From NCBI RefSeq assembly GCF_053078305.1, contig NZ_CP166879.1: a stretch of 64,000 nt of DNA. One strand, given 5' to 3'. The number at the start of each line of letters is the position of its first letter. The first letter of the stretch is position 1. Shown in pieces: positions 21,001-27,000 of the stretch. Made by a program: the position numbers.

Positions 21001-24000
21001 TTGTCGCGTTGTTGCAGACCACGGCGGATGAGGCTGCGGAGTTTACCGGGATGATTCCTGTTTATCATTTTCTGGTCAGTGCCGCGATTCTGGTGTTCAT
21101 GGTTATTTTCTGGCGGACACACCACCGCGGTCACCGTAACTGGCTGGCACTGCTGCTGTTCGTATTATGCTCTGTAAACAGCTGGCCGTTGCGGATGGTT
21201 AAAGGAACCGTTGTGGGGACAACTGACACATTGCGTGAAATGCAGCGTTATGAACAACTGAGTCAGCACAGGGCTGACAGCTGGAAAATCCTGCCGGGAG
21301 CACCGTTGTATGACACGATTGTGATTGTCACTGGTGAGAGTGTGCGCAGGGATTATATGTCGGTATATGGTTATCCCGTACCAACCACACCGTGGCTGAA
21401 TACGGCTCCCGGTTTATTTATTGACGGCTATACATCGGCAGCAGCCAGTACCGTACCTTCCCTGAGCCGGACACTGATTTATGACTATGAGCAGAACCCT
21501 GACTCCGGCAACAACGTGGTAGCGCTGGCAGCAAAAGCAGGATACAGCACATGGTGGATATCCAATCAGGGAAAACTGGGGGAGCATGATACACGCATCT
21601 CTGTTATTGCTTCTGATGCGGAGCATACCGTTTTCCTCAAGAAAGGCAGCTTTGCTTCCCGTAAAACGGATGACATGTTGTTGTTACAGGAAACAGAACG
21701 TGCGCTGGCGGATAAATCCTCTCCGAAGGTGATTTTCCTGCACATGATTGGCTCTCATCCGAATCCGTGTGACCGACTTAACTCCTGGCCGAATCATTAC
21801 CTGGAGCAGTATCCCCGAAAGATTGCCTGTTACCTCGCCAGCATCAGTAAACTGGATAACTTTCTCGGTCAGCTTGATGGTATCCTTCGCCGGCATTCCC
21901 GTCATTTCGCCATGCTTTACTTTTCTGACCATGGGCTGTCGGTCAGCGATAGTGCCAATCCTGTTCATCATGATGGTCATGTGCAGGGAGGCTACAGCGT
22001 TCCCCTGATTATTACCGCCAGTGACATCACGTCTCATCAGTCCGTCAGCAGGAAAATCAGTGCCCGTCATTTCGCAGGTATTTTTCAGTGGCTGACCGGC
22101 ATTCGTACTGAAAATATACCGCCATTCAATCCGCTGACAGACGAAGATAATGAACCCGTTATGGTTTTTAACGGGGAGAGGAATGTACCGGCAGACAGTC
22201 TGAAACCGCAGCCTCTGATTCTTCCGGTCAGGGGAAAATAAGCGTAATGTTCATCACCAGATTATGTACGATGAGTTTTCCACTGTTTATATCGATTATC
22301 TTGCTAATTACCAGACTGGAGTAACCAGACCAACCGAAAACACCGGGGAGGTGATTACCCGCTGGCAGAGGAAATCCGGTTTTTTTGATGTCAGCCATAA
22401 CGTGTTTGACAATAAAGCATTATGAAAGGGTGTTAATGAGTCCATGGGATAATTCATAAAAATAATTTACTGTGTTATCCTTTTCAAAAGAAATATTCAG
22501 AAGATAACCCCTGGCTGACAACCAGGGGAAGGGGACATTAACAGTGTTATTATTGGTGGATAAATTATTACTTGTGTGCAGGATACACTAATGCAATATC
22601 TACTGATACTGTATGCCAGTATGTTTCATGCCTGCCGCTGAAAACGGCAATATCCAGGGCCAGACATATTCACCATTCATATTTCTGCATTTCTGTACAA
22701 TTTTCTCAGAAAGCGTCTCACCAATTCTTTCACGCAACTTCTCCTGCTGTCTTAAAATACTTTCGCATATTTCGAAATCATCTTCCTGCATCAGCATTTC
22801 GGCGCATTTAATGATTTCTGCCCGTTCATGCAGCACAGAGGAATGATTATAGAGCCAGTTTACAAACAGCAATGCTTCCGGATATTGCCCCCATAACGGG
22901 TGGTATGTGGCATAATAATCTTCAGCAGTATCCGGACCGCCTGAAAAGTTATGCCATACAGCAAGTGGAAATGGATGCAGATTTCCGCACAGTATTTCTG
23001 CGATGTAAGTATTTGCCGCAAAGCCGCGACGAAATGCAGTTGCAGCTTTTACCAGTTCCCCATTAAGAAAATGCAGAAGGCTGTCCTTGACCCACGATAT
23101 TCAGACAGTCGTTGTATCTTAAGTTGACGTTACCCGCTGACGTCGATATTCCCTTGGTGAGAGATAACCTAACGCACTATGCGGATGGGTTTCATTGTAA
23201 TGCTCGATCGCCACTGCAAGGTTATGCAATGCCGTTCTTACATTCGGTTTCGGCATGAACGCGATGTAGTCTTCTTTCATCGTTTTCACGAACCTTTCTG
23301 CCATTCCATTGCTCTGAGGGCTACTGACTGCCGTCATGCAGGGCTCCAGATTCAACTCTCTGGCGAACTGCCGTGTTTCATGAGCTGTATAAGCCGAACC
23401 GTTATCAGTCAGCCACTGGATTGGCCGTTCCGCTCCTTTATCGCCAAAGCGTTTTTCTATTGCTCCTAACATGACATCCTGCACCGTTGCTTTGTCATAA
23501 CCTCCCGTGCTTGCGGCCCAGTCTATGGCTTCACGATCGCAACAGTCCAGTGCGAACGTGACACGCAGTTTTGCGCCATCATCACAACCGAACTCAAAGC
23601 CATCGGAACACCAGCGCTGGTCGCTTTCCTTCACCGATATTCGGCCTTTATGTTCCCGCTGCGGCCGTGAAGGTTTGTCATGTAACAACAGGTTATTTTC
23701 GCTCATTATCCGATAAACGCGCTTTGCATTCACGAACGGCACTCCTTTGTTACGGGACTGTCGTCTGAGAATGGCCCAGACACGACGATAGCCATATGTC
23801 GGCATATCGCTGATGATATCAAGGATACGTGCTAACACTTCCGCATCCGCAGCCTCATCACATCTGCGACGACGTTTATTCGGCTTATTACCAGATGTTT
23901 TCATCCGTTGTGCCAGTTGCGCACGCGACACGCCCAGAATACGGCTTACCAGGGTTATTCCTTGTCCGTTGGCAACAAGGGCGCATGCGCTATCCATTTT

Positions 24001-27000
24001 CGCGACTGACCATACTCCACCGCTTCTTTGAGGATCTCAACTTCCATGGTTTCTTACCCAGCAAGCGCTGTAACTCTTTTATTTGTTTTATAGCGGCAGC
24101 CAGTTCTGAGGCAGGAACGACATCCTCTCCGGCAGCAACAGCAGTGAGACTTCCTTCCAGATATTGTTTTTTCCACTTAAACAACAGGCTGGGCTGAATA
24201 CCATGCAAACGCGCCACATGGGACACCGTCATACCGGGTTCCATTGTCTGCTGAATAATGGCGATTTTTTCCTGAGGAGTTTTACGTTTACGAAGCTCCT
24301 GCCCCAGCAAAATTCCAGTCATCTCAAAATTAGAACTAGTGTTAGACATATATCCAAGCCTATCTCTTATTTTAAGATACATCCACTGTCTGGCGTTTCA
24401 AGGGGCCGGTTCAGAAAATGCAGAAGGCCGAGTTCATACCAGTAAGGTGAAAATTCATCTGCATGCGCTTTCAGTACATGGCGTGCCTGTTCATGGTCGC
24501 CAGTACGTAACAGTTCCGGTCCCAGTAGCCAGCGTGCTCCCTGATTGTCTTCAGGATTGTATGCCAGTATTTTATCAGTGAGCAGAGCTGCATCCTGATG
24601 ACGCTGTAAGTGCACATTTGCGAGAATTGCTGCATAAAGCGCGCGCAGATAAGGCCGGTTTTCGGGATGCATCCAGATGATTTCACCACTGAAACTTTCC
24701 GGGATGAGACGATTACCTGCTGCCAGTCCTTTAAGAGCAGCGTTCAGTGCCTTACGCGGGGCATTCTGCTCCAGAAATGCGCATGCCAGGTAAGCGTGTA
24801 CATCAATAAAGTCAGGCTCCTGTCGGGCAAGGCGTCTGAGTTTGTTGATATAACTTGTTTCGCTGATTTCATCTCTGTCGTATGCATCAATTAGTTCGTC
24901 AAACTCATCCAGCAACGAGCCAAACCAGGCGTCCGGGAACACGAAACAGCCCTGGTTATCGTTCACTTCAAAGCGTAATCTGTCATTCATTTTCTGAGCC
25001 TGTAAAATCTGTGGTGGCATAGTCTGAGAGCATAAAAGTCATGATGTTGTGTATCAAGCCTTGTTTTTGCCCTGGATTAATATTTTACCATGTCACCGGA
25101 TGCCTGCCTGTCTTACATTGTGGGCACTCAATATACCCGTCTGAAAAATGTTAATTTGTCTGTGATTGCGTTGTTTTGTGATAATTTTGCTGATGCAGAA
25201 TAAACGTTTTGTCAAAAACTTTATCTGAAAATAAAACATAAAAATAAGAATCCTCCGAACCTGCAGGCCGGAGGAATAATCGTGAAGTGAGTGAAAATCA
25301 GAATAACGTGTTCTCAGCTTAACTTACCTGCTCAGAAAGCGAATCAATGTAGTCAGCATACCACTGCATCATTTCACGGCGACCATCAATATACAGGGCA
25401 TGATTATAGGTACCCCTGATGGAATTTTTATCCACATGAGCTAACTGCATTTCAATCCAGGCAGAATTAAACCCCTGTTCGTGCAGAATGGTACTCATGG
25501 TGTGACGAAAACCATGACCGGTTGCTCTGCCATCGTAACCGATACGTTTGAGCACCATATTGATGCTGGCTTCGCTCATTGGCTTGTTGATATCACAACG
25601 TCCCGGGAAAACCAGCCGGTATTGTCCGGAGAAAGTTTTGAGTTGTTGCAGAATGTCAGTGACCTGTCGTGACAGTGGTACGACATGTTTACGTCGCATT
25701 TTCATGCGGCTTTCAGGGATTGTCCACAGGGCATTATCAAAATCAATTTCTGACCATTCAGCGGACCGTAGCTCAATCGTTCTGAGGCCTGTCAGAAGCA
25801 GCAGATTTGTCGCCATGCGGGTAACAGGACTGCCATGATATTCAGCGAGCTTCCTGAGAAAAACAGGGAGCTCATCTGCTCTCAGGTGGGGGAAGTGTGC
25901 AGCTTTTGGCGCCGCCAGCGTACTGGTCAGTTCAGATGCCGGATTGACAGTGGCTCGTCCGGTGGCGATGGCATAACGAAAAATCTGATTACAGTATTGA
26001 CGTACCTTACGCAGTTTTTCCAGCGAGCCACGTTTTTCTATGCGGCGCAGAATTTCCAGCATTTCCAGCGGGAGGATATCCGTAACGCTTCGTTTGCCCA
26101 GATACGGGAAAATATCTTTATCCAGCGCTTCCAGTACGCTTCTGGCGTAACTTTCAGACCATGACAAAGATTTATGCTGGTGCCATTCCGTAGCGAGGGC
26201 ATGGAACGTATTGGTGGCAGAGATTTTCTGAGTGAGTTTTTCCTTTCGCTTCTTTTCGCCCGGGTCACCACCTTCGGAGATGATTTTTCGGGCATCGTCA
26301 CGTTTGATTCTGGCCTCAGCAAGGGAGACGTCGGGATAGACGCCGAGGGCCAGTTTTTTCTCTTTTCCTGCTATCCGGTATTTAAGCCGCCAGTAGCGGG
26401 CTCCCGTGGTTTTTACCAGCAGATATAAACCACGTTCGTCAGAGAGTTTATAGTCTTTTTCTTTAGGTCTGGCTGTTTCGACCTGTCTGGCTGTAAGTGC
26501 CATATGGGGGCTCCTGAAACTGACTGAACATAATGAGCCCCCACCGGTGCCCCCAATGAAAGCTTGATTGAGAAAGAGTTCAGTAGAGTTCGGTGGAGTT
26601 CAGGATGTTCAGATTGCTTGTAACGATGTGATTATACTTGAGTTTCGTGGAGTTCGGGAGATGAATCTGGAAGTGAAAGTGGTGCCCGGACTCGGAATCG
26701 AACCAAGGACACGGGGATTTTCAATCCCCGTGTTGCGAGTATTCAGGTAGTGAAGTGAATATTCTGGCTGGTTTCCGTAGTGTAAGTGATTGGTTGCACA
26801 CTTTAAAGAGTGTGCTATATGAAAATTTTACCGGTTATATCCACTAAAGGTGGCGAAGGAAAATCAACCCAGTCTGCTAATCTTGCCGGTTTTCTGGCAG
26901 ATGCCGGTCTCCGTACTCTGCTGATAGACGGAGACCATGCACAGCCCACGGCAAGCAATATCTTTCCGCTGACGTATGAAGCGCCGGCCGGTCTTTTTGA

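What the first reader, a model, noticed from the sequence alone, without database searches (positions are those of the whole stretch)
23067..24428. IS2-like insertion flanked by an unusually long 15-bp direct repeat, splitting the gene next to the integrase
The 1332-bp element is bracketed by identical GAAAATGCAGAAGGC 15-mers, and the host ORF frame continues across it (...LGLLHFL / LLHFLNGELV...). IS2 normally makes 5-bp duplications. A 15-bp repeat suggests an atypical insertion or short-homology recombination event.
Basis: seen in the sequence. Interest (0 to 1): 0.35.

Follow-up and report, generated by a model that had tools for sequence, protein, structure and literature searches.

The report
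IS2-type element that normally duplicates 15–16 bp
The 15-bp repeat is real, but it is the normal footprint of a whole branch of IS2-related insertion sequences that duplicate 15 or 16 bp of target instead of IS2's 5 bp, a difference of about one turn of the DNA helix.

Summary
Observation confirmed. A 1332-bp IS3-family (IS2-group) element lies at 23082-24413 on the minus strand. It is flanked by exact GAAAATGCAGAAGGC copies and splits a 347-aa TPR gene next to a P4-type integrase. Thirteen E. coli genomes carry the uninterrupted gene with a single copy of the 15-mer, so this is a true target duplication.

The interpretation (an aberrant insertion or short-homology recombination) is not supported. 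Other copies have the same TG...CA ends but different flanks, so the 15-mer is not part of the element.

- Long-repeat branch: 46 independent insertions of this element and its relatives (ISEc48, a Klebsiella/Enterobacter relative, and copies in Yersinia, Pantoea and Ca. Sodalis) carry perfect repeats of 15 bp (29 sites) or 16 bp (17 sites).
- IS2-like elements, scored the same way, give 5 bp at all 20 sites that have a repeat.
- The transposase tree splits into exactly these two classes.

OrfB of the two classes is 62% identical, with no added domain. Inferred mechanism: the two strand-transfer sites on the target lie one helical turn further apart (5 + 10.5 ≈ 15.5 bp). Stepwise repeat lengths of this kind are published for IS481, IS1202 and IS481EU. 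The IS3 family is described as fixed at 3-5 bp, and I found no paper reporting this exception. ISfinder could not be checked.

The parts
23067..23081 (.). Target-site duplication copy abutting the IS right end (IRR)
   Evidence: Exact 15-mer. Present once in the empty site of 13 genomes.
23082..24413 (-). IS3-family, IS2-group insertion sequence, 1332 bp. Other copies are 1333 or 1336 bp. It is 87.9% nt identical to the element PGAP labels ISEc48.
23082..23122 (+). IRR (TGTCCTTGACCCACGATATTCAGACAGTCGTTGTATCTTAA, read inward)
   Evidence: Identical in all 99.8% copies.
24372..24413 (-). IRL (TGAACCGGCCCCTTGAAACGCCAGACAGTGGATGTATCTTAA)
   Evidence: Identical in all 99.8% copies.
23119..23997 (-). 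orfB (292 aa): HTH_21 plus DDE integrase core. One T->M change from the consensus (C->T at 23336).
23990..24382 (-). orfA, frameshifted in this copy. The normal product is 131-142 aa and ends ...[36 protein letters not shown]. Here it ends ...[24 protein letters not shown].
24050..24052 (-). A4->A3 single-base deletion in orfA relative to all 8 other copies examined. The copy is probably defective, or this is a homopolymer sequencing error.
24414..24428 (.). Target-site duplication copy abutting the IS left end (IRL)
24414..24990 (-). 5' part of the interrupted TPR-protein gene (residues 1 to about 193). The ORF then runs into the IS as far as 24367.
22600..23081 (-). 3' part of the interrupted TPR-protein gene (residues about 189-347)
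25319..26503 (-). P4-type tyrosine integrase next to the target gene (context)
26680..26729 (-). 3' 50 nt of tRNA-Phe only (att-type remnant, context)

Best explanation
The 15-bp repeat is an ordinary target-site duplication made by an IS2-group (IS3-family) element. This element belongs to a distinct sub-lineage whose transposase joins the two IS ends to target phosphates staggered by 15 or 16 bp, instead of the 5 bp of IS2. Shown: the duplication is real, it is 15 or 16 bp at every informative site of this lineage, and the length class follows the transposase phylogeny. Inferred: transposition follows the IS3-family copy-out/paste-in route (IS circle with abutted ends, then symmetric attack on the target). 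In that step the two catalytic centres engage the same face of the target helix one turn further apart than in IS2 (5 + 10.5 ≈ 15.5, hence the mix of 15 and 16). Gap repair then copies the 15-16 nt. In the window the insertion destroyed a 347-aa TPR gene of a pheU-type island. This IS copy has itself acquired a frameshift in orfA.
For: (1) Empty sites hold one copy of the duplicated sequence. For the window's site. The window at 19992-20046 is itself the exact empty site of another strain's insertion. (2) The termini are the same and the flanks differ in other copies. (3) Counts of perfect abutting repeats: window-type IS 14 sites (8x15, 6x16); ISEc48 10 of 10 sites (7x15, 3x16); the 78% relative in Klebsiella, Enterobacter, Yersinia and Pantoea 10 sites; Ca. 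Sodalis endolongispinus 12 sites. The total is 29x15 + 17x16. No site has 4-6 bp or about 26 bp. (4) The control with the same script gives 5 bp for IS2 (8 of 10 copies) and for 12 IS2-like loci in Aeromonas, Klebsiella, Lonsdalea and others. (5) The OrfB tree separates the two classes cleanly. (6) A repeat counted as 16 bp cannot be a 15-bp repeat extended by one chance base, because the comparison is between abutting blocks. (7) Precedent: steps of about 10 bp in repeat length, read as one helical turn, are published for IS481, IS1202 and IS481EU (PMC10045372; bioRxiv 10.1101/2022.12.17.520857). In IS2 the repeat length is taken as the distance between the two catalytic centres (PMC3299598).
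Against: No transposition was observed, so the stagger is read from genomic footprints only. About a quarter of non-Sodalis copies, and most Sodalis copies, lack a repeat. This is expected from IS-IS recombination and decay, but it is not proven site by site. The helical-turn geometry is an inference. OrfB of the two classes differs by only 12 fixed substitutions and small indels, and it is not obvious how that moves the active sites by about 35 Å. ISfinder could not be consulted, so the property may already be recorded there.
Confidence: 0.9

Rival explanations
1. One-off aberrant event: an IS2-type element that normally makes 5-bp duplications inserted abnormally, or was placed here by short-homology (15-bp) recombination.
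For: IS2 itself makes 5 bp. The published summary for the IS2 subgroup is 5 bp (PMC10045372).
Against: 46 independent sites in this lineage have 15/16 bp and none has 5 bp. The repeat sequences are unrelated to one another and to the IS, so there is no homology to recombine on.
Confidence: 0.03
2. Mis-set boundaries: part of the 15-mer belongs to the IS termini, and the true duplication is short.
For: One extra base matches on one side (A at 23066 and 24413).
Against: The conserved sequence begins at TG and ends at CA in every copy. Everything outside differs from site to site. The empty site holds the full 15-mer once.
Confidence: 0.01
3. The IS landed between two pre-existing tandem copies of the 15-mer, or the duplication arose afterwards by gene conversion among paralogous TPR genes.
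For: The TPR gene family has up to 5 places per genome.
Against: 13 genomes with 99.8% identical flanks have a single 15-mer. The same length class recurs at unrelated loci.
Confidence: 0.01
4. The long stagger is real but is set by something other than one-turn transpososome geometry. Candidates are a host DNA-bending protein or a different oligomeric state that happens to give 15-16.
For: There is no new domain and few fixed differences between the two transposase classes. No target consensus was found.
Against: The same 15/16 outcome occurs in Escherichia, Klebsiella, Enterobacter, Yersinia, Pantoea and Sodalis hosts and tracks the transposase clade. The value of 15.4 on average fits 5 + 10.5.
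Confidence: 0.15

Closest known systems
IS2 (IS3 family, IS2 group)
   Same: About 1.33 kb. orfA/orfB overlap in the -1 frame. OrfA has an HTH and OrfB a DDE core (62% aa identity; OrfA 76%). The inverted repeats are homologous (T[GA]N5G[CA]CCC...CAGACA). An IRR-IRL abutment with a 1-bp spacer was seen for a long-repeat relative (L136), as in the IS2 minicircle junction.
   Different: The duplication is 15-16 bp rather than 5 bp. IRL starts with TG rather than IS2's TA. OrfA is 10 aa longer at the N-terminus and OrfB about 10 aa shorter at the C-terminus. The frameshift region is CGA AAA TGG instead of IS2's GCA AAA AAG.
ISEc48 (name used by NCBI PGAP for WP_089592289.1)
   Same: 87.9% nt identity, the same architecture, and 15/16-bp duplications at 10 of 10 sites.
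   Different: The terminal sequences differ (TGAGCTGGCCCC...GGGGCAAGAACA). Identity is below the level usually used for isoforms, so the window element is probably a separate IS. Its ISfinder name could not be determined.
IS1202 family (ISAba32 / ISTde1 / IS1202 subgroups), IS481 and IS481EU
   Same: Repeat lengths come in discrete clade-linked classes about 10 bp apart (5-6, 15-17, 27-28 bp; about 4-6, 15, 25 bp). These are interpreted as whole helical turns.
   Different: These are different transposase families with a single ORF and no programmed frameshift. In IS1202 the classes carry class-specific indels, whereas here the two classes are 62% identical with almost no indels.
IS911 / IS3 / IS150 (other IS3-family groups)
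   Same: Copy-out/paste-in chemistry and TG...CA ends (family knowledge; PMC3299598).
   Different: They make 3-4 bp duplications.

Membership tests
IS3 family, IS2 group | Two overlapping ORFs (orfA, orfB in the -1 frame) giving OrfAB by programmed frameshift | tested here: met
   ORF layout in intact copies. RefSeq annotates a joined CDS with 'programmed frameshift'. The overlap region is shown. In the window copy orfA is broken by a 1-bp deletion.
IS3 family, IS2 group | OrfA with HTH; OrfB with a DDE (rve) catalytic core | tested here: met
   Pfam: PF01527 at 7e-18; PF00665 at 6e-20; PF13683 and PF13276 also hit.
IS3 family, IS2 group | Imperfect terminal inverted repeats ending 5'-TG...CA-3'; length 1.2-1.5 kb | tested here: met
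IS3 family, IS2 group | Transposase closest to IS2 among the IS3 subgroups | tested here: inconclusive
   OrfB is 62% and OrfA 76% identical to IS2, DNA identity is 70%, and the inverted repeats are homologous. No other IS3 subgroups were included as outgroups.
IS3 family, IS2 group | 5-bp target-site duplication (subgroup hallmark according to PMC10045372, which cites ISfinder) | tested here: not met
   15 bp in the window. 46 sites in the lineage are 15/16 bp. IS2-like controls give 5 bp.
IS3 family, IS2 group | Transposition through a circular intermediate with abutted ends (1-2 bp spacer in IS2) | not testable with these tools
   There is only a hint: one metagenome contig with IRR + 1 bp + IRL of the 78% relative. 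It could equally be a tandem insertion.
IS1202 / IS481 long-repeat classes | 15-17 bp duplication | tested here: met
IS1202 / IS481 long-repeat classes | Single-ORF transposase of the IS1202 or IS481 type | tested here: not met
   The element has the two-ORF IS3 organisation and 62% identity to IS2 OrfB. The resemblance is in behaviour only.

The most novel reading that the evidence does not exclude
A monophyletic branch of the IS2 group has shifted its target stagger by one helical turn (5 bp to 15/16 bp). It has no new domain and only about a dozen fixed OrfB substitutions. Three of these cluster around the catalytic glutamate and the signature lysine (S225/R225, R235/S235, E242/R242). If so, the stepwise repeat-length phenomenon extends to the IS3 family, which is described as fixed at 3-5 bp. 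It also yields a closely related pair (IS2 versus ISEc48-like) in a biochemically tractable system for finding what sets duplication length.
Probability: 0.5. Interest if true: 0.65.

Novelty: new variant of a known kind. Interest (0 to 1): 0.5.

Why it matters
Duplication length is used as a fixed diagnostic of transposon families and as a read-out of transpososome geometry. IS-annotation tools and manual curators who expect 3-5 bp for IS3-family elements will mis-set boundaries, or will call insertions like this one aberrant. Mechanistically, two transposases only 38% diverged give 5 versus 15-16 bp. That makes the published but unexplained one-helical-turn steps in duplication length testable by simple chimeras in the IS2 system, for which active transposase and footprinting assays exist (PMC3299598). 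For the window itself the result is ordinary: a recent IS insertion that knocked out a TPR gene in a pheU-type island.

Tried and rejected
- ISfinder name: literature searches for ISEcl1, ISEc27, ISEc36, ISEc52 and ISEc48 gave no sequence-level link and no duplication data. Fetching plasmid CP079783, said to carry ISEcl1, failed.
- Literature on IS3-family 15/16-bp repeats: nothing relevant found.
- Target consensus: none. Information content is at most 0.23 bit per position with n=36, and there is no base bias that explains 15 versus 16.
- The 86% relative on a pAA-type plasmid (L020, L045-L054) is one degenerate copy at one site and is uninformative.
- Apparent tandem copies (H86-88) turned out to be an IS2 nested inside the window-type IS.
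- Synthetic IRR-IRL junction queries found only heterologous abutments between different IS2-group elements.
- Copies without repeats: neither flank recurs nearby in either orientation, so local inversion or deletion could not be shown.
- No structure prediction was run. A monomer model cannot address the spacing of active sites in the complex.
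Full report
**1. The observation.**
The 15-mer GAAAATGCAGAAGGC is present exactly twice, at 23067-23081 and 24414-24428. The 1332 bp between the copies is an insertion sequence on the minus strand. It has 5'-TG...CA-3' termini and imperfect inverted repeats of about 41/42 bp. It carries an orfA with a transposase HTH (PF01527) and an orfB with HTH_21 and the DDE integrase core (PF00665, PF13683).

The flanking host gene is a TPR protein. The uninterrupted allele is 347 aa and reads ...YWYELGLLHFLNGELV.... In the window the duplicated 15 bp encode LLHF(L) on both sides. The next gene, 25319-26503(-), is a P4-type tyrosine integrase.

**2. It is a true duplication of the target.**
I joined the two flanks with a single 15-mer and searched 5,426 complete E. 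coli genomes. Thirteen match the 425-nt query ungapped with one mismatch, and all annotate an intact TPR protein there. In one of them (S19-141) the context is OMP, phosphoethanolamine transferase, TPR, integrase, tRNA-Phe, dicD, dsbD. That is a pheU-type island. No complete genome carries the window's insertion. It is therefore recent or strain-specific.

**3. The 15-mer is not part of the IS, and the event is not a one-off.**
Eight other copies (99.8% identical, 1333 bp) begin and end with the same bases, TGAACCGGCCCC...GGTCAAGGACA. Their flanks are unrelated to the window's. Six of the eight have their own perfect 15- or 16-bp direct repeats.

Looking up contigs that encode the identical OrfB added ten more places, and a 1336-bp variant added one. 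In total 14 distinct insertions of this IS have repeats: eight of 15 bp and six of 16 bp. Three complete copies have none.

The window supplies a second empty-site proof. Its intact OMP gene at 19992-20046 is exactly the reconstructed target of the insertion seen in strain JNEC-KY202, and it holds that site's 15-mer once.

**4. Relatives and controls.**

| Element | Relation to the window IS | Sites with an abutting repeat |
|---|---|---|
| Window-type IS | same element (99.5-99.8% nt) | 14 (8x15, 6x16) |
| ISEc48 (PGAP label) | 87.9% nt | 10 of 10 (7x15, 3x16) |
| 1336-bp relative, common on Klebsiella/Enterobacter plasmids | 78% nt | 7 distinct sites, 15/16 bp |
| True IS2 | 70.5% nt | 8 of 10 copies, all 5 bp |

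A scan of one genome per species with the OrfB alignment returned 80 loci. Boundaries were found automatically through the shared end motif T[GA]N5G[CA]CCC, and this gave a clean split.

- Elements with OrfB 72-80% identical to the window's have 15 or 16 bp. These are in Yersinia artesiana, Pantoea stewartii, Enterobacter asburiae, and about 55 copies in Ca. Sodalis endolongispinus, 12 of which have intact repeats.
- Elements with OrfB 62-66% identical and IS2-like ends (TAGAyTrGCCC...AAATCCA) have 5 bp in 12 loci. These are in Aeromonas, Pluralibacter, Lonsdalea, Superficieibacter, Klebsiella and Enterobacter sichuanensis.

Totals: the long class has 46 sites (29 of 15 bp, 17 of 16 bp) and the short class has 20 sites, all 5 bp. 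No long-class copy has a 4-6 bp or a roughly 26-bp repeat. Two decayed Sodalis copies have 14-16-bp repeats with 1-2 mismatches. A neighbour-joining tree of OrfB places the two length classes in two separate clades.

**5. What differs between the classes.**
OrfB of the window type and of IS2 is 62% identical, and OrfA is 76% identical.

- The indels are small: two residues near position 48-50, one or two near 113-114, a C-terminus about 10 residues shorter, and an OrfA N-terminus 10 residues longer.
- Twelve OrfB positions are fixed within each class and differ between them: A50/-, M65/L, I76/L, R82/E, H106/E, E115/A, I120/V, D126/N, Q194/E, S225/R, R235/S, E242/R.
- By sequence position, R235 follows the catalytic E234 and E242 follows the signature K241. 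These are candidates only.
- IRL begins with TG in the long class and TA in IS2-like elements.
- No target consensus was detectable.

**6. Mechanism.**
Shown: the stagger between the two joining positions on the target is 15 or 16 nt.

Inferred from family knowledge: IS3-family elements excise as circles with abutted ends. The transposase then cleaves both ends and the 3'-OH groups attack the target symmetrically. The repeat length equals the distance between the two catalytic centres on the target, which is 5 bp in IS2 (PMC3299598).

The observed mean of 15.4 bp, split between 15 and 16, fits 5 + 10.5. That corresponds to the same face of the helix one turn further along. This one-turn reading has been proposed for the discrete classes of IS481, IS1202 and IS481EU (PMC10045372). 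IS1202 subgroups of 5-6, 15-17 and 27-28 bp follow the transposase tree (bioRxiv 10.1101/2022.12.17.520857; PMC10132070).

One metagenome contig shows IRR + 1 bp + IRL of the 78% relative. This matches the 1-bp junction spacer of IS2. If that is a circle or dimer junction, circle formation is unchanged and only target engagement differs. It is a single observation in a partly chimeric contig.

**7. Comparison with what is known.**
The element meets the IS3/IS2-group criteria I could test, except the 5-bp duplication. The same paper that discusses stepwise lengths states that IS3-family lengths are conserved: IS407 4 bp, IS2 subgroup 5 bp, the rest 3 bp. Four full-text searches found no report of 15/16-bp repeats for an IS3-family element, and ISEc48 appears only in passing in two papers. 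ISfinder entries, which may record the value, could not be consulted. I therefore rate this a new variant of a known kind, not a new kind.

**8. State of the window copy.**
Relative to the consensus it has an A4->A3 deletion at 24050-24052. This throws orfA into the third frame and should prevent OrfAB synthesis. It also has G->A at 23503 and C->T at 23336 (OrfB T->M). The deletion lies in a homopolymer and may be a sequencing error.

**9. Verdict.**
The finding is real, and its local meaning is mundane: an IS knocked out an island gene. The unusually long repeat is the rule for a widespread branch of IS2 relatives.

Noticed in passing
window 19992-20046 (15-mer at 20012-20026), inside the OMP gene 19693-20577: This stretch is the exact unoccupied target of the same IS as inserted in E. 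coli JNEC-KY202 and KY174 (L008). The same island has therefore been hit independently about 3 kb apart in different strains.
   Followed up: yes
window 26680-26729: Only the 3' 50 nt of tRNA-Phe lie next to the integrase, and ARAGORN finds no tRNA anywhere in the 64-kb window. Beyond this point the sequence diverges from the pheU-dicD-dsbD context and starts with a ParA-like gene (26810-27706). This suggests a second integrative element in tandem.
   Followed up: partly
window 24050-24052: There is a single-base deletion in an A-run of orfA in this IS copy only. It is either a defective copy or a homopolymer sequencing error.
   Followed up: partly
L135 (NZ_CP027586.1 2166070-2169544); also H87, H88: A true IS2 is nested inside a copy of the window-type IS. 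This copy shares its left flank with L005/L011, but its right flank lacks the 16 bp (ACAAAGCCCCTTCATG) that abut IRR in L005. The 16-bp difference is unexplained.
   Followed up: partly
L146, L147, L148 (junctions near locus position 1843-1853): Different IS2-group elements sit head-to-tail, separated by only 1-2 bp: IS2 IRR + C + ISEc48-like IRL; IS2 IRR + C + IRL of the 78% relative; ISEc48 IRR + AT + IS2 IRL. This suggests that these transposases target each other's ends.
   Followed up: partly
L136 (metagenome contig OJTV01001662.1, 957-2152): The IRR of the 78% relative is followed by a single G and then its own IRL. This is a circle-junction-like or tandem-dimer arrangement. The first 956 bp of the contig are unrelated AT-rich DNA.
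   Followed up: partly
L062-L112, L126, L133 (Ca. Sodalis endolongispinus, NZ_JAFJYC01): This mealybug symbiont genome holds about 55 copies of a long-repeat-class IS. Many are decayed or lack repeats, and several OrfB sequences carry stop codons.
   Followed up: partly
L002 positions 700-760 versus L035 (IS2): The orfA/orfB overlap of the long-repeat class reads CGA AAA TGG where IS2 has the A6G slippery run GCA AAA AAG. The frameshift signal may therefore differ.
   Followed up: no
L020 and L045-L054 (pAA-type plasmid next to aar): A degenerate ISEc48-like copy has a broken orfB and a diverged right end. It is conserved at one site across many samples.
   Followed up: partly
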